32,000 bases of DNA from Thermosulfurimonas dismutans. Lineage in GTDB: Bacteria > Desulfobacterota > Thermodesulfobacteria > Thermodesulfobacteriales > Thermodesulfobacteriaceae. The number at the start of each line of letters is the position of its first letter. The stretch's first letter is position 1. The notes beneath the pieces are model-generated. The model worked only from the letters and a program-made list of their open reading frames with translations, did not search any database and was not told where the DNA came from. Location of the stretch: contig NZ_LWLG01000006.1 in NCBI RefSeq assembly GCF_001652585.1, positions 30,001 to 62,000 of the forward strand, written 5' to 3'. The translations under genes and the position numbers were made by a program. Shown piece by piece: positions 1 to 7,716 of the stretch.

Positions 1-873
1 GTCTCCAAGTACATTTAGATATTCTTCAATATCAAGATCGTCGTACTCTTGTTGTCTTGTTCCGGTAATACGAAATTTGTCTATGGATTGCCAATCAACA
101 ACTTCAGGTGGAGCTAAGTGAAGTTTTTCTATATTTTTGTTTTTTATTGCCTCCTCTAATTTAGAGTTTAGGAACTTAATTAGACTTAGATCTCTTACTT
201 CGTTTAAATAGTCTACCCAGCCGAAATATTGTTTATATCGATTATCATAGTAAGCCTCTAAAATTTGCTTGCACTTTTCTCCAAGCTGATCAATTGTGAT
301 TTGTGCAGTAAAAGTCAGAGCATCAGCTCCAGTTAATCGCTTTGCAAAAGCTTCATCTTCAGGCTCTCCTGTTACAGCCCGAAGTAAATCTCTCGAAACA
401 TCTAAACCAAAAACTCCTAAATCTGCTCCTCGACTTGTTTGTTTTCGGGTAGCAAGCATCATGTCTTCATAAGTTCTCAAATCTAAGCTGCGCAATCTAT
501 TCGGATGAATTCGATTTAGAACTACTTTTAGACCAAAATTAAGCTCATAACAATCTGGCTTTAAAAGATTACGGCCATAACCAAAGGTAAACGCAAAAAT
601 CCTTTTTTCAGTTTTTATAAAAAGTACACCTGAAGCATTTGAAACACTTATCTCATTAAGATCCAAATCTAATGAGGGTTGAATAAACTCGATCCATTTA
701 GGAGGTCTACTTAACGAAGTTGAATACCAAAACTCTCCTTCAAAAGGAAGTTCCGACCTAAGAGGAATTCTCTTAAGTGCATCAGGATTTCGTAATGCGT
801 CCTGAAAAGAACTTATGTTATCTTTCAGCAGCAAGACCGTTAGCTTTTGTGTTTTTTTCTTAGTTGAGCTCAC
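1..873 (-). CDS. DUF6119 / TIGR04141-family 'sporadically distributed' protein, N-terminal ~290 aa (the gene continues past position 1)
   Basis: It is absent from the ORF track because it is open at the window edge. Manual minus-strand translation is uninterrupted: (M)SSTKKKTQKLTVLLLKDNISSFQDALRNPDALKRIPL..GEFWYSTSLSRPPKWIEFIQP..GVLFIKTEKRIFAFTFGYGRNLLKPDCYELNFGLKVVLNRIHPNRLRSLDLRTYEDMMLATRKQTSRGADLGVFGLDVSRDLLRAVTGEP..YFGWVDYLNEVRD. This matches my recollection of the TIGR04141 N-terminal pattern. The GTG at 873 follows a GGGGA SD-like sequence. An in-frame ATG at 900 has no SD. Confidence 0.55.
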   Translation of the reverse strand, partial: MSSTKKKTQKLTVLLLKDNISSFQDALRNPDALKRIPLRSELPFEGEFWYSTSLSRPPKWIEFIQPSLDLDLNEISVSNASGVLFIKTEKRIFAFTFGYGRNLLKPDCYELNFGLKVVLNRIHPNRLRSLDLRTYEDMMLATRKQTSRGADLGVFGLDVSRDLLRAVTGEPEDEAFAKRLTGADALTFTAQITIDQLGEKCKQILEAYYDNRYKQYFGWVDYLNEVRDLSLIKFLNSKLEEAIKNKNIEKLHLAPPEVVDWQSIDKFRITGTRQQEYDDLDIEEYLNVLGD

Positions 874-2215
874 AAAATTTCCCCACAAACTTTTCCGCAT
901 CTTTGATGCGGATTTGACCGGAAATGAGTTTGGGAAGGAGGGTGTCGCGTACACCTGATAATGTTTGCGATTCTTTGTTGTTAGATTTTATTTTCAAAAA
1001 TAGGGGGTCAACGGTTTTTTCAAATTGGATTAATATTTCTGAAGGAGCTTCAGGAATATAGAAATGTTCAAAGGCTTCTTTAGAAACTCTTTGACGGCCA
1101 GATGTTCCTTTCATAGTTTTTACCGCAAAGTCTCTCAATTTTTCCCATCGAGACAAACAATAAATAAAATATGATCCAGCTCTTTTAGGTGAAAACACCA
1201 AAAATTCCGTTGATCCCCATCCTACTTGATCTTCTTCTAAAAAGTTAACTAAAGTTGTTTTGCCGTTTTCTAAACAGGGAGTTATGCGTGCAAATAAAAC
1301 GTCACCATTTTTAAACTTACTTCCGGAAGTAAATTCTCGGAGCTTGGGGGGAGATAGCAATTCCAATCCCGATGTGGGCAAAGATGCCATATCTACATAA
1401 GGAGCAATTTTCCCTTTGGAAAGGGAATATTTAGGATTTATCTCAATAATTTCTGTAAAAGAACTAACCCTCCACCCCTTCGGTATCGGGCCGAGGGGGG
1501 AATCCTCAAAGGAATCAGGGAAGAGCCGGGCGATTTCGGGAGAAAGTTTGGGGGTGGAGATGGCGCGGCGGCGGGCGGCCTTTTCCGCCAGGGCGTCGGG
1601 AATGGGGTTTCCGGCCTTAAGGGCGTTGTCAATCACCGGGGCAAAGTCCACAAACCAGGACTTAAAGATGGCCTTCGCCATCTCCTCCAGCGTCTCATTC
1701 ATCCGCCGATTAAGCTCTATCTTGTCATCCAGCGTGCCGAGTATGTGAGCGATGGCTTTTTGTTCGGGGAGGGGTGGAAGAGGAATTTGAATCTCATCAA
1801 ATGATTTCATGGTAATAGTATCAAATACCGTCCCATAAGAAACCGCATGCATTTCCTGTATAGAGGCTTTTAAAGCGTAGTAGAGATAATCTTGATCTAT
1901 TTTGTTTGTGTCTTTAGGAATCAAGCCATAACAAGTTTGATTAAACGCCATATTTTCGCCCAATTGGGCAATAGCTCCCACTGTTCCGCGTGCAGTAATA
2001 ATTACTGTTCCTTTTGGTAAAATCTTGGCCGCACTATTGTTGAGACCTTCTTCGGTTATTGTTTCAGCGGTAGAGAAAAGATATCTACCTTTATTGTTTA
2101 CAACATCCTTAGCTGTAGCCCATTTTATAGAACCATCCCAGTAACTTGAAATACCACGCTTGGGAGTGCCTCCTAATACAGGGATAGCAATGTCAGAAAT
2201 CGGTACTTTTCTCAT
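860..2215 (-). CDS. hsdS: Type I restriction-modification specificity subunit HsdS (two TRDs)
   Basis: Two target-recognition halves are separated by the conserved central helix LPPLPEQKAIAHILGTLDDKIELNRRMNETLEEMAKAIFKSWFVDF. The C-terminal conserved repeat is SQTLSGVRDTLLPKLISGQIRI. Confidence 0.9.
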   Translation of the reverse strand: MRKVPISDIAIPVLGGTPKRGISSYWDGSIKWATAKDVVNNKGRYLFSTAETITEEGLNNSAAKILPKGTVIITARGTVGAIAQLGENMAFNQTCYGLIPKDTNKIDQDYLYYALKASIQEMHAVSYGTVFDTITMKSFDEIQIPLPPLPEQKAIAHILGTLDDKIELNRRMNETLEEMAKAIFKSWFVDFAPVIDNALKAGNPIPDALAEKAARRRAISTPKLSPEIARLFPDSFEDSPLGPIPKGWRVSSFTEIIEINPKYSLSKGKIAPYVDMASLPTSGLELLSPPKLREFTSGSKFKNGDVLFARITPCLENGKTTLVNFLEEDQVGWGSTEFLVFSPKRAGSYFIYCLSRWEKLRDFAVKTMKGTSGRQRVSKEAFEHFYIPEAPSEILIQFEKTVDPLFLKIKSNNKESQTLSGVRDTLLPKLISGQIRIKDAEKFVGKFCELN

Positions 2216-2305
2216 TTTTTTTGCGAGACGTTAAACGAAAAATTCACTCTTACTCTCTCCTCAATCCTTTTTCTGATCTGCGAATACAATCTGGCGTTAA
2301 GATTT

Positions 2306-3322
2306 TCACGTTCCCTCCAGCTCCCTTTCCAATTCCTCCACACTCGGCAAACTACTCTTGATCTCCTCCGGTAGAGCACGGGTCAGGCGATAAGAAGAAA
2401 CGCCTATTGGTTTGGTGGTATCCCTTAAGGCGTACTCTACGATTACTTTGTTTTTGGACTTGCAAAGGATGATGCCTATAGAAGGCCTATCGTCGGGATG
2501 ACGGAACAAATCGTCCACCGCCGAAAGATAAAAATTCATCTTGCCGGCATATTCCGGCTTGAATTCGCCAGTCTTAAGTTCTATCACCACATAACAGCGG
2601 AGTTTTAGGTGATAAAAGAGGAGGTCCAGGTAAAAATCCTCTCCCCCGACTTCCAGGTGAACTTGACTACCCACAAAGGCAAAACCAACTCCTAATTCAA
2701 GGAGAAAATCCCGGATGCGGGCGATGAGCTGCCTTTCAAGCTCACGCTCGCGGATATCTTCCGCCAATCCCAGAAAATCAAAAACATAGGGATCTTTCAG
2801 TATTTCTTGAGCAAGGTCTGATTGGGGAGCAGGCAAAGTCCGATCAAAATTGGTAATGGCTTTTCCCTTACGATGATAAAGGCCGCTTTCTATTTGGTGG
2901 ACCAGGACGTTTCGGCTCCACCCATGCTCGATGGTTTGTCGGATGTACCATATACGCTCAGCAGGATCTTTGACTTTATCTAAAAGGGTGCAATGATGGA
3001 ACCAGGGGATTTGTGCAGCAACCTGCTGCACAAATTCTTTGTCAGGATAGGCTTCAGCAAAAGCCCGCATATACTTCAAATTCCGGGCTGAAAAACCCTT
3101 CAGGTCTGGAAACTCTCGCCTCAGATCCTGTGCCAGACGGTCAATCACCTTTGAACCCCAGCCTTCCTTTTTCTGGCGTTCCAGGACCATCCGGCCGATT
3201 TCCCAGTAGCGCAGGATAAGTTCGCGGTTGGCGGAAAGGGCAGCTTTGATCCGGGCCCTTCGAATACGCTCCTTCAAATCCGCTAAAAATTCGGCATAGC
3301 CGGGAGGTAAGCTATTAAACAT
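2306..3322 (-). CDS. DUF1016 / YhcG-family PD-(D/E)XK nuclease-domain protein
   Basis: The N-terminal region has typical DUF1016 strings (RYWEIGRMV, GWGSKVIDRLAQDL, GFSARNLKYMRAF, WSRNVLVHQIESGLYHR). The C-terminal nuclease core is DFYLDLLFYHLKLRCYVVIELK (D...ExK). Confidence 0.8.
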   Translation of the reverse strand: MFNSLPPGYAEFLADLKERIRRARIKAALSANRELILRYWEIGRMVLERQKKEGWGSKVIDRLAQDLRREFPDLKGFSARNLKYMRAFAEAYPDKEFVQQVAAQIPWFHHCTLLDKVKDPAERIWYIRQTIEHGWSRNVLVHQIESGLYHRKGKAITNFDRTLPAPQSDLAQEILKDPYVFDFLGLAEDIRERELERQLIARIRDFLLELGVGFAFVGSQVHLEVGGEDFYLDLLFYHLKLRCYVVIELKTGEFKPEYAGKMNFYLSAVDDLFRHPDDRPSIGIILCKSKNKVIVEYALRDTTKPIGVSSYRLTRALPEEIKSSLPSVEELERELEGT

Positions 3323-3626
3323 TCACCAGCTCCTCTTTTATATGCTGCCAGAGTCTTGGTTTGCGAATAACAGCTTTTTTAGAAACTACATCAACTTCAA
3401 GGCCTAAGATTTGTTCTAAATAATCTTTGAGATCTATTATTTTTAAGCCGATAGGCTTTTCAAACTCAACTAGAATATCAATATCACTGGCAGTAGTTTC
3501 CTCGCCACGCACATAAGAACCAAAAAGATTGGTCTCTTTAACGCAAAATTCTTTAGCTAAAACGGGTTTATGTGCTTGAAGAATGCGTTTTATTTCTTCT
3601 AAAGATTTATTCCCCATAAAACCCAA
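3315..3626 (-). CDS. Minimal nucleotidyltransferase (MNT/MntA-like, Pol-beta superfamily)
   Basis: It has the GSYVRGEETTASDIDILVEF motif (GS-x-x-RG...D-x-D) and is ~100 aa. Its stop overlaps the DUF1016 start by 8 nt (ATGTTTAA). Confidence 0.8.
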   Translation of the reverse strand: MGFMGNKSLEEIKRILQAHKPVLAKEFCVKETNLFGSYVRGEETTASDIDILVEFEKPIGLKIIDLKDYLEQILGLEVDVVSKKAVIRKPRLWQHIKEELVNV

Positions 3627-3642
3627 ATTGTTTCTGTTTTAG

Positions 3643-3993
3643 TTATAGTTTCTTCTGTCTAATCTTAGTTCGTTCTACTACTGTAAACATTCCTTTAAGT
3701 TTAATGTTTTGCAAACTTAAAATCTTTAATAAGATTTCTCCACATTCCTCAGGATAAGTAGGAGTAAAGCGAAAATATATTATTCCGGCAGGCCGAAACT
3801 CTTTTTCGTGAAAAATTATCTTTCCATAATCTTTGTCAAAAGTAAGGATTATTCTCTCTTCTTTCTGCGCTATTCTTAAAACTTCTCTATCACTGATACC
3901 TGGAGACTCTTCCATAATAGATTTTACGTCGTATCCATTGTCTCTTAAAAGTTTTATGGACTTTAACGGAATATTTTCATTAGCTAATAGCAT
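3643..3993 (-). CDS. DUF5615 (Mut7-C/PIN-like) putative toxin
   Basis: The sequence MLLANENIPLKSIKLLRDNGYDVKSI...SDREVLRIAQKEERIILTFDKDYG matches the DEN-LP...GHDV...D.E.L..A..E.R.L.T.DKDFG pattern of DUF5615. Confidence 0.7.
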   Translation of the reverse strand: MLLANENIPLKSIKLLRDNGYDVKSIMEESPGISDREVLRIAQKEERIILTFDKDYGKIIFHEKEFRPAGIIYFRFTPTYPEECGEILLKILSLQNIKLKGMFTVVERTKIRQKKL

Positions 3994-4247
3994 TATGCAG
4001 CTTCTCTGTTTTCCAACTCATAAATTAGCTCTTCACGCATACAATCGGCGACAAACGCGAAAACCGCTTTTAAGCTATCAAGAGTAAGAGAAGGATAATT
4101 TTCTAATATTTGTTCTACAGTCCAGCCTTCGGCAAGTAAATTCAAAATAAACTCTACAGAAAGTCTCGTCCCTTTGATAACAGGTTTTCCAGCCAAAATT
4201 TCAGGATTTGAAGTAATATAGTCTTGCCACCTCATAAATTCCTCCAA
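3993..4247 (-). CDS. DUF433 putative antitoxin / HTH-like partner
   Basis: The sequence NPEILAGKPVIKGTRLSVEFILNLLAEGWTVEQILENYPSLTLDSLKAV is the DUF433 signature. Its stop and the next gene's start share TAATG. Confidence 0.75.
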   Translation of the reverse strand: MEEFMRWQDYITSNPEILAGKPVIKGTRLSVEFILNLLAEGWTVEQILENYPSLTLDSLKAVFAFVADCMREELIYELENREAA

Positions 4248-4256
4248 TTTGTTTTT

Positions 4257-5930
4257 TTAGTTACCATAAAACCCAAGCTCCCTTAAATTGCGTTTTATAG
4301 CTTCTTCAAGTTTTGTGCTTTCGGCAAATTGAGTCTCCAGCTCCGCCACCAGGCGTTTCAGCTTTTCTTCAAAGGGCTCGTCGTCTTCTTCCTGCTGCGA
4401 GATGCCTACATACCGTCCGGGCGTGAGCACGTAGTCGTGTTTGCGGATCTCTTCAAGGCTTACGTTTTTACAAAAGCCGGGAACATCCTTATACTCTCCC
4501 GCACCTTCCTCACCGCGCCAGGCATGGTATGTCTGAGCAATTTCTTGGATTTCTTCGTCGGTTAACTCCCGATGGACGCGATCCACCATACGACCCATAC
4601 GGCGGGCGTCGATAAAAAGCACTTCGCCCCGGCGGTCACGAAGACGCTTCTTTTGCCCGGCAGGGGGACGACCGCTCTTGTCCCTGGCCAGAAACCACAG
4701 GCAGGCCGGGATCTGGGTGGTGTAAAAAAGTTTGTCAGGCAGGGCCACGATGCAGTCCACCAGGTCGGCTTCCACGATATTTTTACGAATCTCCCCTTCG
4801 TTTGACTGATTAGAAGAAAGCGAGCCGTTGGCGAGCACCACCCCAGCGTAACCTACTGGTGATAGATGATGGATCATGTGCTGTAGCCAGGCAAAGTTGG
4901 CATTTCTCGCCGGCGGAAGCCCATATTTCCAGCGTTTGTCGTGGCGGAGTTGTTCTGCGCCCCAGTTCTTCATATTGAAAGGTGGATTGGCCAAGATGTA
5001 ATCGGCTTTGAGATCAGGAAACCGATCATTTAAAAAAGTGTCGCCTTGCTCGATCTTGCCCTCTATGCCACGGATGGCGAGGTTCATTTTACAGAGACGC
5101 CAGGTGGTGTAATTAAGTTCCTGGCCGTAGATGCTGATTCGGGCCCGGGCCCGGCCACCGTTACCGTTGCCCGTGGCGTGGGCCTCTACAAAACGCACCG
5201 ACTGCACAAACATGCCGCCAGAGCCACAGCAAGGGTCGTAAACCCGGCCCTCAAAAGGCTCAAGCATCTCGACCAGAAGCTTTACCACCGAAGCCGGAGT
5301 GTAAAATTCACCCCCTTTTCGGCCTTCGGCGCTGGCAAATTGGCCGAGAAAATATTCGTAAACCCGCCCCAGAACGTCCTTGGACCGGGCTTCTTCGCCC
5401 TCTAACCGGATATTCGTAATCAGATCTATGAGTTGGCCCAGGCGCTGTTTATCCAGGGCCGGGCGAGCATAATCTTTAGGAAGCACCCCTTTTAGGGAGG
5501 GGTTCTCGCGCTCTAAGACCTCCATGGCCTCGTCCACTATCTGGCCGATCTCCGGCCGACGGGCGTTTTGCTTGAGACGCTCCCAGCGGGCGGGAGAAGG
5601 CACCCAGAAGACGTTGGCCGCCCGATACTCGTCGGGATCTTCGGGATCGGCGTAAGGTTCCTGTTCAAGTCGTTTGCGATGTTCCTCGAAAGCGTCCGAG
5701 ATGTACTTGAGGAAGATCAGCCCCAGGACCACGTGTTTGTACTCGGCGGCGTCCATACTTCCCCGCAGGGCATTGGCCGCCTCCCAGAGCTTGGCTTCGA
5801 AACCAAGATTGGCCGTGCTACGCCTTTTCTCTTTTGGTGGACGGGGTGGTTTTAATTCCAATTTGGGAGTACTGGTATTTTGGCCCTTTAGTTCTTCCAC
5901 AAACTCATCTATAGGATTCTTTTTCGGCAT
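4257..5930 (-). CDS. hsdM: Type I restriction-modification DNA methyltransferase subunit HsdM (N6-adenine)
   Basis: It has the HsdM_N region ([32 protein letters not shown]), AdoMet motif I ([12 protein letters not shown]) and catalytic motif IV (ILANPPFN). The ATG at 5930 is preferred (GGGGG SD-like sequence upstream); the ORF-track start at 5948 is a TTG. Confidence 0.93.
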
Positions 5931-6240
5931 ATAGGCCCCCGGATACAACAGAGTCTTAATACTTCAATACTTCTTTATCTTCTGGCTTACCACGCCGATG
6001 ATCTCATGCTCCTCGGTCATCTCGATTTTGGAATATTCGTGTTTTTTCCTAAACTACCGTATAAGTATCTCTTTTTCCCCCTTAAAAGGCTTATCTACCT
6101 AATTTAGAATCTTTTGACAACTCGGTTTGGTGTCCATATAGGTGTCCAATATTTTGGAATTTTACGATTTTATGTTACCATCCAGGCGAGATAGAAAAAG
6201 ATTACGTGAGATTGATAAAGATCGAGAAAAGTTTATCGGC

Positions 6241-6285
6241 CTCTTAATCCATAGGTTGGAGGTTCGAGTCCTCCGCGGCCCACCA
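6241..6285 (+). pseudogene. tRNA-Lys(CUU) 3' fragment, from anticodon loop to CCA; putative island att remnant
   Basis: The sequence reads CTCTTAA (loop, anticodon CTT), TCCAT, AGGTT (variable loop), GGAGG-TTCGAGT-CCTCC (T arm), GCGGCCC-A-CCA. The upstream sequence cannot pair with the anticodon 3' stem. No GGGCCGC acceptor 5' strand occurs in 5950-6240. Confidence 0.7.
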
Positions 6286-6357
6286 AGTTTTTCAAGGGTT
6301 TCAGGAATCCTCTCCTCAGGGGTCCGTACAGATGTCCGTAAATTGCTTAAAGCCCTA

Positions 6358-7716
6358 CTACCGTGAGACAAACCGGAGCCAGAGGTAACCGGCTATTCCG
6401 GCGAGGAGGGAGGCTAAAAGGATACCCATCTTGGCCTGCTGAAGTAAAGCTTCCTCACCCGGCCAGGCCAGCTCTGTAATAAAGAGACACATGGTAAAAC
6501 CTATCCCGGCCAGAAACCCCACTCCTACGAGCTGCGAAGGCCGAACCCCGGTGGGTAAAAAAGCCAGCCCTAATCTCGATACCAGCCAGGCCGTGCCAGC
6601 GATGCCCACCGTCTTTCCCACCACCAGTCCCAAGACAATGCCCAGGGATACGGGATGAGCAAACACTTCGGCCAGAGCCCCGGGCTCCATGTGAATTCCA
6701 GCGTTAGCCAAGGCGAAGAGAGGGATGATCACCAAGGCCACCGGAAGATGCAGGGCGTGCTCCATCCGTAGTGAGGGAGGCTGCACATCCCTTACAGCCG
6801 TGTGAATAGCTTGGATAACTTCTTTTTGGTAAGGGGTGAGAGTATGGGGGGCCGCCGAAACGGGAACGGCCTCGCAGGCCTTGAGGAATCTCTGGAGAAC
6901 ATCTTTGAAGTATCCGGGGATCAGTTTGGGCCTGGTGGGGACCGTGAAAGCGGTAAGTACTCCGGCGATGGTGGCATGCACGCCGGAAGCCAGCATAAGT
7001 AGCCAGAGTATAGTGCCTCCTATAAAATAAGGCAGGCCATGATAGATTCCGGCACGATTGAAGGTCCAAAGCAGGGTCCACACTCCGAAAGCCCCGCCCA
7101 AAGCCTTGAAATCAATGGCATGAGTGTAGAATAAGGCTATTATGATCACCGCCCCCAGATCATCTACGATGGCTAAAGCGATGAGAAAGGTGACCAACCC
7201 CGAGGGAACGTAACGCCGAAGGAGCACCAGCACGCTTATGGCAAAGGCTATGTCCGTGGCCATGGGGATGCCCCAACCCCTGATGGTAGGCTCACCGTGG
7301 TTCACCAGGGCGTAGATGATAGCCGGAAATATCATTCCTCCGATGGCCGCTATCACCGGAAGCAGGGCCGCCTTAAAGTCCGAAAGCTCCCCCACCAGGA
7401 TCTCTCGTTTTATCTCCAGACCGATCAGAAAGAAAAAGAAGGCCATAAGGCCATCGTTTATCCAGTGATGCAGACTCATCCGTAGTTCCCACGAACCAAA
7501 GACTAGAGCCAGCTCTTTCTCGAAGAAGTGATGGTAGGCCCCGTTTACCGGAGAGTTAGCCAGAACAAGGGCCACCACGGTCATAACCATGAGGACCATA
7601 GCCGAGGCCGTTTGAGTCTTGATAAACTCCTCTATAGGGCTTAGGATCTTGTCCACCGCCCTCTCCCAAGGAGCAAAAAGTCGAAATTCATCGGGCAACT
7701 GTAGTTGATCTTTCAT
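6358..7716 (-). CDS. nhaA: Na+/H+ antiporter NhaA
   Basis: It has HHWINDGLMAFFFFLIGLEIKREILVGELS, multiple TM segments and the DDLGAV motif. Its ATG overlaps the upstream gene's stop (ATGA). Confidence 0.92.
   Translation of the reverse strand: MKDQLQLPDEFRLFAPWERAVDKILSPIEEFIKTQTASAMVLMVMTVVALVLANSPVNGAYHHFFEKELALVFGSWELRMSLHHWINDGLMAFFFFLIGLEIKREILVGELSDFKAALLPVIAAIGGMIFPAIIYALVNHGEPTIRGWGIPMATDIAFAISVLVLLRRYVPSGLVTFLIALAIVDDLGAVIIIALFYTHAIDFKALGGAFGVWTLLWTFNRAGIYHGLPYFIGGTILWLLMLASGVHATIAGVLTAFTVPTRPKLIPGYFKDVLQRFLKACEAVPVSAAPHTLTPYQKEVIQAIHTAVRDVQPPSLRMEHALHLPVALVIIPLFALANAGIHMEPGALAEVFAHPVSLGIVLGLVVGKTVGIAGTAWLVSRLGLAFLPTGVRPSQLVGVGFLAGIGFTMCLFITELAWPGEEALLQQAKMGILLASLLAGIAGYLWLRFVSR

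What the first reader, a model, noticed from the sequence alone, without database searches (positions are those of the whole stretch)
1..5948. Type I R-M operon split by four non-RM genes and followed by DUF6119, with no hsdR in view
Seven minus-strand genes are packed as one apparent transcription unit.
- hsdM to DUF433: 9-nt gap.
- DUF433 and DUF5615: share TAATG.
- DUF5615 to MNT: 16-nt gap.
- MNT and DUF1016: 8-nt overlap.
- DUF1016 to hsdS: 90-nt gap.
- hsdS and DUF6119: 14-nt overlap (41 nt if the ATG at 900 is used).

In canonical type I loci, hsdM and hsdS are adjacent or overlapping. Here two toxin-antitoxin-like modules and a PD-(D/E)XK nuclease sit between them. The position after hsdS, where hsdR is often found, is taken by a DUF6119 gene.

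Composition is mosaic by hand count of single 60-nt lines. The MNT/DUF5615 block is about 27-28% GC (lines 3421 and 3661). DUF1016 is about 42-52% (lines 2521 and 3121). hsdM and the hsdS core are visibly GC-rich.

The locus is either a recombination hotspot that collects defence cargo or a composite multi-gene defence system using the M/S module.
Basis: partly seen in the sequence, partly recalled or inferred. Interest (0 to 1): 0.75.

Follow-up and report, generated by a model that had tools for sequence, protein, structure and literature searches.

The report
Type I restriction operon carrying swappable cargo
This is an ordinary type I restriction-modification operon that has picked up unrelated defence and toxin-antitoxin genes between its own genes, a pattern already described. 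Relatives carry different cargo at the same spots, and their missing restriction gene lies just past the point where this window ends.

Summary

The "composite system" reading is not supported. The "hotspot collecting cargo" reading is.

- **Source and relatives.** The window's HsdM is 100% identical to a Thermosulfurimonas dismutans protein. Five related loci keep the hsdM 3' end as an anchor but carry different genes after it:
  - hsdS directly (L001)
  - MntA-HepT-IetA-IetS (L004)
  - IetA-IetS-MNT (L045)
  - DUF1016 directly (L044)
  - DUF433 (L046)
- **Scars of turnover in the window.**
  - A 64-nt relic of the ietS 3' end fills most of the "90-nt gap".
  - MNT is an orphan antitoxin whose HepT partner was replaced by DUF1016.
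  - A 21-nt imperfect duplication flanks the DUF433-DUF5615 insertion.
- **hsdR.** It starts right after DUF6119 in L001 and in L004/L043, so its absence here is most likely a window-edge effect.
- **DUF6119.** It is itself cargo. About 9 of 42 homologue loci touch type I R-M genes. The rest are solitary or sit beside RmrA-like, ApeA, integrase or IS genes.
- **Island boundary.** A 5'-truncated tRNA fragment at 6238-6285 probably marks the right edge of a genomic island.

Embedding in type I R-M loci is already published (Payne et al. 2024). DUF6119 as a candidate defence effector is the only fresh lead.

The parts
4257..5948 (-). hsdM, the type I R-M methyltransferase subunit. The likely true start is the ATG at 5930, giving the 557-aa product.
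   Evidence: Pfam N6_Mtase 2.3e-111 plus HsdM_N 3.2e-30. PADLOC MTase_I 3.9e-215. Motifs DPCCGSGG and NPPF are present. 100% identical to P0053, named 'type I restriction-modification system subunit M [Thermosulfurimonas dismutans]'.
3993..4247 (-). DUF433, the putative antitoxin or DNA-binding half of a DUF433/DUF5615 pair (embedded cargo).
   Evidence: Pfam DUF433 3.3e-23. One-base overlap with DUF5615. The block is absent at this junction in L004, L044 and L045 and present in L046.
3643..3993 (-). DUF5615, a PIN/Mut7-C-like putative toxin (embedded cargo).
   Evidence: Pfam DUF5615 8.5e-24 and a weak Mut7-C RNase hit at 4.6e-4. No PADLOC hit.
3606..3626 (.). Right copy of a 21-nt imperfect direct repeat flanking the DUF433-DUF5615 insertion. 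It is the MNT start region.
   Evidence: the repeat finder family D3, 18 of 21 identical to 4256-4276. In L004 the hsdM 3' end and the MNT start are one overlapping sequence.
4256..4276 (.). Left copy of the same 21-nt repeat. It is the hsdM 3' end and stop codon.
3315..3626 (-). MntA-like minimal nucleotidyltransferase, an orphan antitoxin with no HepT partner.
   Evidence: Pfam NTP_transf_2 6.5e-14. PADLOC PDC-S09 1.1e-26. NCBIfam MntA 41.7 bits, below the 60-bit cutoff. GS...DIDILV motif intact. 87% nt identity to the L004 MNT, which is followed by HepT (Pfam 2.4e-33) with the same 8-nt overlap.
2306..3322 (-). DUF1016/YhcG PD-(D/E)XK nuclease, a single-gene defence candidate (embedded cargo).
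   Evidence: Pfam YhcG_C 8.7e-69 plus DUF1016_N 6e-49. PADLOC PDC-S02 4.7e-166. The D...ELK motif (YLDLLF, VVIELK) is intact. It occupies the place of HepT-IetA-IetS in L004. It follows hsdM directly in L044.
2243..2306 (-). Relic of the 3' end of an ietS (subtilase) gene. It fills most of the '90-nt gap' upstream of hsdS.
   Evidence: 94% nt identity to L004 7136-7199 and L045 10468-10530, which are the 3' ends of intact S8 peptidase genes. The encoded NLNARLYSQIR[K/E]RIEERVRV is conserved. The L045 pair matches PADLOC IetA 4.9e-97 and IetS 2.8e-257.
860..2215 (-). hsdS, the specificity subunit, with two AT-rich TRDs and a GC-rich central conserved region.
   Evidence: Pfam Methylase_S, two stretches. 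PADLOC Specificity_I 2.5e-120 over residues 3-445. Only the central region (1465-1772, 86%) and the 3' end (876-949, 92%) match L004, so the TRDs differ.
1..873 (-). DUF6119/TIGR04141, N-terminal 291 aa only; about 0.75 kb of the gene lies beyond the window. It is embedded cargo between hsdS and the inferred hsdR.
   Evidence: Pfam DUF6119 2.9e-85. TIGR04141 1.2e-74. No PADLOC hit for the fragment or for the full-length L004 homologue. 90% nt identity to L004. hsdR follows it in L001 and L004/L043.
6238..6285 (+). 3' two-thirds of a tRNA (anticodon loop CUCUUAA, Lys-CUU-like, through the T-arm, acceptor strand and CCA). Probably an att-site duplicate marking the right edge of the island.
   Evidence: Rfam tRNA model positions 28-71 of 71, 24.3 bits, E 0.0011, truncated at the 5' end. 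ARAGORN finds no full tRNA here. GC rises from 44% (1-6285) to 54% to the right of it.

Best explanation
The region is the right-hand end of a horizontally acquired island. It carries a type I restriction-modification operon whose inter-gene junctions have served as insertion and exchange points for independent cargo.

**Shown**
- hsdM and hsdS are intact. This pairing is what forms the M2S1 methyltransferase in characterised type I systems.
- Four cargo genes lie between them, forming three units:
  1. a DUF433/DUF5615 (PIN-like) putative toxin-antitoxin pair;
  2. an orphan MntA-like nucleotidyltransferase;
  3. a DUF1016/YhcG PD-(D/E)XK nuclease.
- A fifth cargo gene, DUF6119, follows hsdS.
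- Related loci keep the backbone (hsdM 3' end, hsdS conserved segments, DUF6119) but carry different cassettes: MntA-HepT, IetAS, PDC-S54, DUF1016, DUF433.
- The window retains an ietS 3' relic, an orphaned MNT, and a 21-nt junction duplication.

**Inferred**
- Cassettes are exchanged by homologous or microhomology-mediated recombination between variant loci that share these flanks. The joints fall at stop/start overlaps, which keeps the downstream genes translatable.
- hsdR lies about 0.75-0.8 kb beyond position 1, after the rest of DUF6119, so the locus would be a complete hsdM...hsdS-DUF6119-hsdR system.
- The cargo genes act independently of the R-M enzyme as extra defence or addiction modules. 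They may be co-transcribed with it.
For: **Anatomy and families.**

**Cargo differs among relatives of the same backbone.**
- L001: M-S-DUF6119-R.
- L004: M-MNT-HepT-AAA-S8-S-PDC-S54-DUF6119-R'.
- L045 (hsdM 92% nt): M-IetA-IetS-MNT.
- L044 (hsdM 91% nt): M-DUF1016.
- L046 (hsdM 94% nt): M-DUF433.

**Sharp homology breakpoints at gene boundaries.**
- The match to the L004 MNT ends 3 nt past the MNT stop.
- Homology resumes exactly at the DUF1016 stop.

**Scars in the window.**
- ietS relic.
- 21-nt duplication flanking DUF433-DUF5615.
- An analogous ~75-nt duplication of the hsdS 3' end flanks PDC-S54 in L004.

**hsdR after DUF6119 in relatives.**

**DUF6119 is not tied to R-M.** About 9 of 42 loci adjoin type I genes. 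The others sit with Peptidase_M78+HTH (RmrA-like), ApeA, integrase, IS110, Dcm or Hachiman genes.

**Composition and boundary.** Mosaic GC. tRNA 3' fragment at the island edge.

**Published precedent.** Type I R-M, BREX and DISARM loci frequently contain embedded genes, and PADLOC's PDC candidate systems were derived from such genes (10.1101/2024.01.29.577857). TgvAB is embedded in the Vibrio cholerae type I R-M cluster and works independently of it (10.1101/2024.04.04.588119).
Against: - hsdR was not seen in this genome. The source contig could not be retrieved.
- In the closest relative the hsdR reading frame is interrupted, in two assemblies that are 99.8% identical over the shared stretch. 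The restriction arm could therefore be decayed in this lineage.
- No transcript, methylation or phage-challenge data exist.
- S-DUF6119-R synteny persists across 51-86% amino-acid divergence (window, L004, L001; L005 shows S-DUF6119). That is more stable than the M-S cargo and leaves room for a functional link.
- The recombination mechanism is inferred from breakpoints only.
- Some relatives are MAGs, where fragmented hsdS or hsdR may be assembly errors.
Confidence: 0.8

Rival explanations
1. Composite system: all seven genes form one obligate multi-gene defence machine. The M/S module supplies target recognition or self-marking, and the nucleases (DUF1016, DUF5615, DUF6119) act as effectors in place of HsdR.
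For: Tight same-strand packing with overlaps, and no intergenic terminator-like sites. No hsdR in the 32 kb. Two predicted nuclease-type genes are present (DUF1016, DUF5615), and DUF6119 has a weak HamA-like C-terminal fold match.
Against: - Cargo content and order differ in every relative examined.
- The tight junctions are inherited from earlier neighbours. The MNT/DUF1016 8-nt overlap is the old MNT/HepT overlap.
- The '90-nt gap' is a gene relic.
- hsdR is present in relatives right after DUF6119.
- MADS-type M/S models score far below their cutoffs: 52.8 against 720 bits and 28 against 400 bits.
Confidence: 0.04
2. DUF6119 is a dedicated partner or guard of the type I enzyme, like PrrC. 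It would be held inactive by the R-M complex and released when a phage inhibits restriction.
For: DUF6119 lies between hsdS and hsdR, the position I recall for prrC (not checked here), in L001 and L004/L043; the window and L005 show the hsdS-DUF6119 half of that arrangement. It is adjacent to hsdR in six actinobacterial loci. About 21% adjacency to type I genes is, by my rough estimate and not a computed control, far above what a random gene would show.
Against: - About 33 of 42 loci have no type I gene within reach. These include relatives at 59% (L047) and 45% (L049) identity.
- Payne et al. describe PrrC as found almost exclusively embedded in type I R-M.
- In the homologue loci sampled, the neighbour families that recur are an RmrA-like HTH+M78 regulator and ApeA.
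- DUF6119 matches no Pfam family other than its own, so there is no detectable similarity to any other described family, PrrC's domains included.
Confidence: 0.1
3. Orphan M/S methyltransferase: the lineage has lost a working HsdR, and the locus now acts only as an epigenetic methylase flanked by selfish toxin-antitoxin and nuclease genes.
For: No hsdR in the window. The hsdR reading frame is interrupted after about 90 codons in L004 and in L043. hsdS is fragmented in L004.
Against: - L001 has a full 1061-aa HsdR with all its domains.
- hsdM and hsdS are intact in the window.
- L004 and L043 are 99.8% identical over the shared stretch, so they are not independent evidence.
- The region beyond position 1 is simply unseen.
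Confidence: 0.12

Closest known systems
Genes embedded in type I R-M, BREX and DISARM loci ('guilt-by-embedding', Payne et al. 2024, bioRxiv 10.1101/2024.01.29.577857)
   Same: Non-R-M genes are nested between hsdM, hsdS and hsdR on the same strand. Two of them match PADLOC candidate families: PDC-S02 (DUF1016) and PDC-S09 (MNT). Relatives carry IetAS and PDC-S54 at the same junctions.
   Different: Five cargo genes sit at two junctions of one operon. The locus shows datable replacement scars (ietS relic, orphan MNT, junction duplications). DUF433/DUF5615 and DUF6119 have no PADLOC v2.0.0 match and were not found in the paper's text or held supplements.
TgvAB, embedded in the Vibrio cholerae VPI-2 type I R-M cluster (10.1101/2024.04.04.588119)
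   Same: An independent defence module sits inside a type I operon. It was shown experimentally to work without the R-M genes.
   Different: TgvAB is a GmrSD-like type IV enzyme. The families here are different, and nothing here has been tested.
PrrC / EcoprrI (an anticodon nuclease embedded in a type I R-M locus)
   Same: A gene embedded in a type I R-M locus. From memory, prrC lies between hsdS and hsdR, which is the position DUF6119 takes in L001 and L004.
   Different: PrrC is described as found almost exclusively embedded in type I R-M. DUF6119 is mostly found elsewhere and matches no Pfam family other than its own.
MntA-HepT (type VII toxin-antitoxin, MNT-HEPN)
   Same: The window's MNT has the GSX10DXD motif and is 87% identical at nt level to the L004 MNT, which is paired with HepT.
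   Different: The HepT toxin gene is absent. DUF1016 starts at the former HepT start position. The NCBIfam MntA score is below the cutoff.
Rosmer (RmrT/RmrA) and HamA of Hachiman, as analogues for DUF6119
   Same: In four actinobacterial loci an HTH+Peptidase_M78 gene matching PADLOC RmrA lies directly upstream of DUF6119 on the same strand. At least three further loci carry one inside the adjoining type I operon. The best PDB match for the DUF6119 C-terminal domain model is the HamA nuclease (Foldseek probability 0.85, E 0.02, TM 0.34).
   Different: DUF6119 matches no RmrT model or any other PADLOC model. The fold match is below significance. No RmrA-like gene was noted among the ORFs called in the finding region of the window.

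Membership tests
Type I restriction-modification system | HsdM with an N6-adenine methyltransferase domain, the HsdM_N domain, and catalytic motifs I and IV | tested here: met
   Pfam N6_Mtase 2.3e-111 and HsdM_N 3.2e-30. DPCCGSGG and NPPF are present. PADLOC MTase_I 3.9e-215. The NCBIfam hsdM equivalog scores 185.6 bits, below its 242.75 cutoff.
Type I restriction-modification system | HsdS with two target-recognition domains separated by conserved regions | tested here: met
   Two Methylase_S stretches. PADLOC Specificity_I 2.5e-120 covering residues 3-445.
Type I restriction-modification system | HsdR (HSDR_N nuclease plus SF2 helicase) encoded in the same locus | tested here: inconclusive
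   None in the 32 kb. Present directly after DUF6119 in L001 (1061 aa, all domains). Present as an N-terminal start with an interrupted reading frame in L004/L043. The region beyond position 1 is not available.
Type I restriction-modification system | Sequence-specific m6A methylation and ATP-dependent restriction | not testable with these tools
   Needs methylome data and restriction assays.
Defence genes embedded in a multi-gene defence system (Payne et al. 2024) | Non-system genes nested between genes of one system | tested here: met
   Four genes lie between hsdM and hsdS. DUF6119 lies between hsdS and hsdR in relatives.
Defence genes embedded in a multi-gene defence system (Payne et al. 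2024) | The embedded genes belong to known or candidate defence families | tested here: inconclusive
   DUF1016 matches PDC-S02 and MNT matches PDC-S09. DUF433, DUF5615 and DUF6119 have no PADLOC hit.
MntA-HepT type VII toxin-antitoxin | An adjacent HepT (HEPN) toxin gene | tested here: not met
   The gene after MNT is DUF1016. HepT is present at the same place in L004.
MntA-HepT type VII toxin-antitoxin | A minimal nucleotidyltransferase with the GSX10DXD motif | tested here: met
   FGSYVRGEETTASDIDILV. Pfam NTP_transf_2 6.5e-14.
DUF433/DUF5615 (PIN-like) putative type II toxin-antitoxin pair | Two small overlapping genes, one DUF433 and one PIN/Mut7-C-like | tested here: met
   Pfam hits and a one-base overlap. 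That this pairing was predicted as a toxin-antitoxin module is my recollection of the comparative-genomics literature; no paper was found in the library.
DUF433/DUF5615 (PIN-like) putative type II toxin-antitoxin pair | Toxicity that is neutralised by the partner | not testable with these tools
   Needs expression assays.
PrrC-like R-M-dependent guard | Near-exclusive embedding in type I R-M loci | tested here: not met
   About 9 of 42 DUF6119 loci adjoin type I genes. L047 and L049 do not.
Rosmer (RmrT/RmrA) | An adjacent RmrA (HTH plus Peptidase_M78) gene | tested here: not met
   None seen in the finding region of the window. It is present next to DUF6119 homologues in L008, L010, L012 and L013, and inside the adjoining type I operon in L016, L017 and L019.
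MADS (methylation-associated defence system) | MAD2 and MAD5 equivalog scores above cutoff | tested here: not met
   52.8 against 720 bits and 28 against 400 bits.
IetAS | Intact ietA ATPase and ietS subtilase genes | tested here: not met
   Only a 64-nt ietS 3' relic remains at 2243-2306.

The most novel reading that the evidence does not exclude
DUF6119/TIGR04141 is an unrecognised stand-alone anti-phage effector. The family has roughly 4,000-5,000 cluster representatives at 50% identity and no literature that I could find. It would combine an N-terminal sensor or regulatory domain with a C-terminal HamA-like PD-(D/E)XK-type nuclease. In some genomes it would be controlled by an RmrA-like HTH-metallopeptidase. 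In this lineage it is fixed between hsdS and hsdR, where it might also sense failure of the restriction enzyme.
Probability: 0.3. Interest if true: 0.55.

Novelty: new member of a known kind. Interest (0 to 1): 0.3.

Why it matters
The general phenomenon is already published, so this locus does not change the picture.

Its value is as a clean natural series. Six related loci share the same anchors and carry different cassettes. They show where the exchange joints fall: at stop/start overlaps, with junction duplications or gene relics left behind. That is useful for understanding how defence islands turn over.

The locus also nominates DUF6119. This is a sizeable family with no assigned function. 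It is absent from PADLOC v2.0.0 and is a reasonable candidate for experimental testing.

Tried and rejected
- **Retrieving the source contig to look left of position 1.**
  - Exact look-ups of the window's HsdS and DUF1016, and of P0053, found nothing on record.
  - The genome and metagenome scans returned only relatives.
- **Fold searches for DUF6119.**
  - The full-length model (pLDDT 81) gave no meaningful PDB match with Foldseek.
  - The C-terminal-domain model (pLDDT 85) gave only sub-threshold matches, led by HamA.
- **Sequence-profile searches for DUF6119.**
  - Profile against PDB sequences: nothing.
  - hhalign against the window's DUF1016: nothing.
  - Lenient Pfam scan of 24 family members: only DUF6119 itself.
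- **Literature.** Searches for DUF6119, TIGR04141, PF19614 and DUF433+DUF5615 found nothing relevant. The supplements of Payne et al. do not mention DUF6119, DUF1016, PDC-S02 or PDC-S09 by those names.
- **MADS.** Considered and rejected on score.
- **Rfam on 5900-6500 as a whole.** It missed the tRNA fragment. The fragment was detected only when placed at the edge of the searched stretch.
- **Promoter and terminator scans.** Uninformative; counts did not exceed shuffles.

Full report
**1.

Pfam confirms every family name.
- hsdM has both its domains and the DPCCGSGG and NPPF motifs.
- hsdS has two Methylase_S stretches.
- The DUF6119 match covers profile positions 1-286 of 524, so the gene is cut by the window edge.
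  - hsdM is 54% GC.
  - The hsdS central region is 59%.
  - The hsdS TRDs, DUF433, DUF5615, MNT and DUF6119 are 31-39%.
  - DUF1016 is 49%.
  - The flanking chromosome is 54%.
- phmmer with the L001 HsdR matched no ORF in the 32 kb at E<=1e-3.
- PADLOC assigns DUF1016 to PDC-S02 and MNT to PDC-S09. It has nothing for DUF433, DUF5615 or DUF6119.
- MADS models score far below their cutoffs.

**2. Where it comes from**

The window's HsdM is 100% identical to a protein named by NCBI as type I R-M subunit M of Thermosulfurimonas dismutans (P0053). The contig itself could not be retrieved.

At 6238-6285 on the plus strand, between hsdM and the nhaA-like gene, lies a 5'-truncated tRNA.
- It matches Rfam model positions 28-71 at 24.3 bits, E 0.0011.
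- It has a CUU-type anticodon loop, a T-arm, an acceptor strand and CCA.
- ARAGORN finds no whole tRNA there.

Such a 3' tRNA duplicate is the usual scar of an island integrated into a tRNA gene. Together with the GC step (44% for 1-6285, 54% to the right), it suggests the R-M locus forms the right end of an island that extends left of the window. This is inference.

**3. Relatives show cassette turnover, not a fixed system**

| Locus | Relation to window | Gene order |
|---|---|---|
| Window | - | hsdM - DUF433 - DUF5615 - MNT - DUF1016 - hsdS - DUF6119 |
| L001 | DUF6119 51% aa | hsdM - hsdS - DUF6119 - hsdR, no cargo between M and S |
| L004 (Thermodesulfobacteriota MAG) | DUF6119 86% aa, 90% nt | hsdM - MNT - HepT - AAA - S8 peptidase - hsdS (fragmented) - 413-aa gene - DUF6119 - hsdR start |
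| L045 | hsdM 92% nt | hsdM - IetA - IetS - a different MNT |
| L044 (Thermodesulfatator indicus) | hsdM 91% nt | hsdM - DUF1016 directly |
| L046 | hsdM 94% nt | hsdM - DUF433, as in the window |

- The AAA/S8 pair was scored on the L045 copy, which is 92% identical at nt level to the L004 block. It matches PADLOC IetA at 4.9e-97 and IetS at 2.8e-257.
- The 413-aa gene in L004 matches PDC-S54 at 4e-166.

Every relative has a different gene set after the same hsdM 3' end.

**4. Scars inside the window**

- **MNT/DUF1016 joint.**
  - Homology to the L004 MNT (87%) stops 3 nt past the MNT stop.
  - DUF1016 begins where HepT begins in L004, with the same 8-nt overlap.
  - The window's MNT is therefore an antitoxin orphaned when HepT-IetA-IetS was replaced.
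- **The "90-nt gap".**
  - Homology resumes exactly at the DUF1016 stop.
  - Positions 2243-2306 are 94% identical to the last 64 nt of ietS in L004 and L045.
  - They still encode NLNARLYSQIR[K/E]RIEERVRV.
  - Most of the gap is a gene relic, and the IetAS-bearing arrangement is ancestral.
- **DUF433-DUF5615 insertion.**
  - The block (3627-4255) is an insertion relative to L004.
  - It is flanked by a 21-nt imperfect direct repeat, 3606-3626 and 4256-4276.
  - The repeat duplicates the sequence in which the hsdM stop and the MNT start overlap in L004.
- **The same signature in L004.** About 75 nt of the hsdS 3' end occur on both sides of PDC-S54.
- **hsdS.** Only the conserved segments match L004. 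The TRDs differ.
- **hsdM.** The body is about 60-75% identical to L004, rising to about 90% in the last 100 nt.

The pattern fits recombination between variant loci at shared flanks. The joints sit at stop/start overlaps. The mechanism itself is inferred.

**5. hsdR**

- In L001, a full 1061-aa HsdR follows DUF6119 with a 4-nt overlap.
- In L004, an HSDR_N-type N-terminus starts 77 nt after the DUF6119 stop. It is 56% identical to the L001 HsdR over residues 8-88.
- In L004 it continues in another reading frame up to the contig end.
- L043, a metagenome contig 99.8% identical to L004 over the shared stretch, shows the same start and the same frame change.

The simplest expectation is that hsdR lies about 0.75-0.8 kb left of position 1. 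Whether it is intact there is unknown.

**6. DUF6119**

The family is sizeable: 4,966 representatives at E<=1e-3 and 3,859 at E<=1e-10 in the 50%-clustered library, nearly all 520-540 aa. I found no functional literature.

Contexts in 42 distinct loci:
- About 9 adjoin type I R-M genes. These are L001, L004, L005 and six actinobacterial loci.
  - The three best-resolved actinobacterial loci (L016, L017, L019) read hsdM - hsdS-like gene - [HTH+Peptidase_M78] - hsdR - DUF6119, most followed by ApeA.
  - L040 is similar.
  - L018 and L031 show only hsdR - DUF6119 - ApeA.
- Four loci have an HTH+Peptidase_M78 gene (PADLOC RmrA-like) directly upstream on the same strand.
- The rest are solitary, near Dcm, Hachiman, integrase, IS110 or plasmid-type genes.
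- Relatives at 59% (L047) and 45% (L049) identity are not R-M-embedded.

So DUF6119 behaves as an independent island gene that is strongly enriched near defence genes. It is not a dedicated R-M subunit.

Structure and motifs:
- The AlphaFold model is confident (pLDDT 81; 85 for the C-terminal domain).
- PDB matches are all below significance. The best for the C-terminal domain is the Hachiman nuclease HamA (probability 0.85, E 0.02, TM 0.34). The list also includes a CdiA-CT toxin, Mus81 and SfsA.
- The C-terminal domain has invariant E, D, H-x-K and Q residues on a helix - three strands - helix core. I read this layout as PD-(D/E)XK-like.
- A nuclease effector is therefore a reasonable but unproven guess.

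**7. Comparison with what is known**

- Payne et al. 2024 report that BREX, DISARM and type I R-M loci frequently contain embedded genes. They derived PADLOC's PDC candidate systems from such genes and note PrrC as an almost exclusively embedded case.
- TgvAB in V. cholerae is an experimentally verified independent system inside a type I cluster.
- YhcG/DUF1016 was predicted to be a PD-(D/E)XK nuclease in 2005, and one copy was already noted in a type I cluster in Methanosarcina acetivorans (PMC1189080).

The window is thus a further, unusually cargo-rich example of a described phenomenon.

**8. Verdict**

- The hotspot reading is supported, and the composite reading is not.
- "No hsdR" is most likely a window-edge effect.
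- Novelty is low: a new member of a known kind.
- The residual interest lies in the well-resolved exchange joints and in DUF6119 as an untested defence candidate.

Noticed in passing
window 6238-6285 (+): A 5'-truncated tRNA (Lys-CUU-like anticodon loop through to CCA) lies between hsdM and the nhaA-like gene. It is probably an att-site duplicate marking the right edge of a tRNA-integrated island. The intact tRNA and integrase would lie left of the window.
   Followed up: partly
window 2243-2306 (-): Most of the 90-nt 'gap' before hsdS is a relic of the 3' end of an ietS subtilase gene. The IetAS defence system is intact at this place in L004 and L045.
   Followed up: yes
window 3606-3626 and 4256-4276: A 21-nt imperfect direct repeat flanks the DUF433-DUF5615 insertion. 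It duplicates the ancestral overlap of the hsdM stop and the MNT start.
   Followed up: yes
L004 8561-8634 and 9925-9997: About 75 nt of the hsdS 3' end are duplicated on both sides of an inserted PDC-S54 gene. This is the same insertion signature as in the window.
   Followed up: yes
L004 11691-12051; L043 1804-2236: The hsdR that follows DUF6119 changes reading frame after about 90 codons, in two assemblies that are 99.8% identical over the shared stretch. It may be a real pseudogene or a shared sequencing artefact. hsdS in L004 is also split into three ORFs.
   Followed up: partly
L008, L010, L012, L013 (8483-9664 or equivalent); L016, L017, L019 (about 5912-6988 or equivalent): An HTH+Peptidase_M78 gene matching PADLOC RmrA lies directly upstream of DUF6119 in four actinobacterial genera. 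In other loci it lies inside the adjoining type I operon. This hints at a Rosmer-like regulator-effector pairing.
   Followed up: partly
L017 11631-13109, also L018, L019, L031 and L040: ApeA (ApeA_NTD1 plus HEPN_Apea) follows DUF6119 immediately in five actinobacterial loci, giving hsdR-DUF6119-ApeA.
   Followed up: no
L044 and L046 contig ends: The contigs of two relatives end within about 150 nt after hsdM. This would fit assembly breaks caused by strain-variable cargo at this junction.
   Followed up: no
window 3312-3322; L044 11679-11700: The DUF1016 cassette is joined at its second or third codon to two different upstream genes: MNT in the window and hsdM in L044. In each case the start codon overlaps the upstream gene's 3' end.
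   Followed up: partly
L011 8751-9974: A 407-aa protein with only an HSDR_N-type domain lies directly upstream of DUF6119 in Herbiconiux ginsengi. It is not a full HsdR.
   Followed up: no
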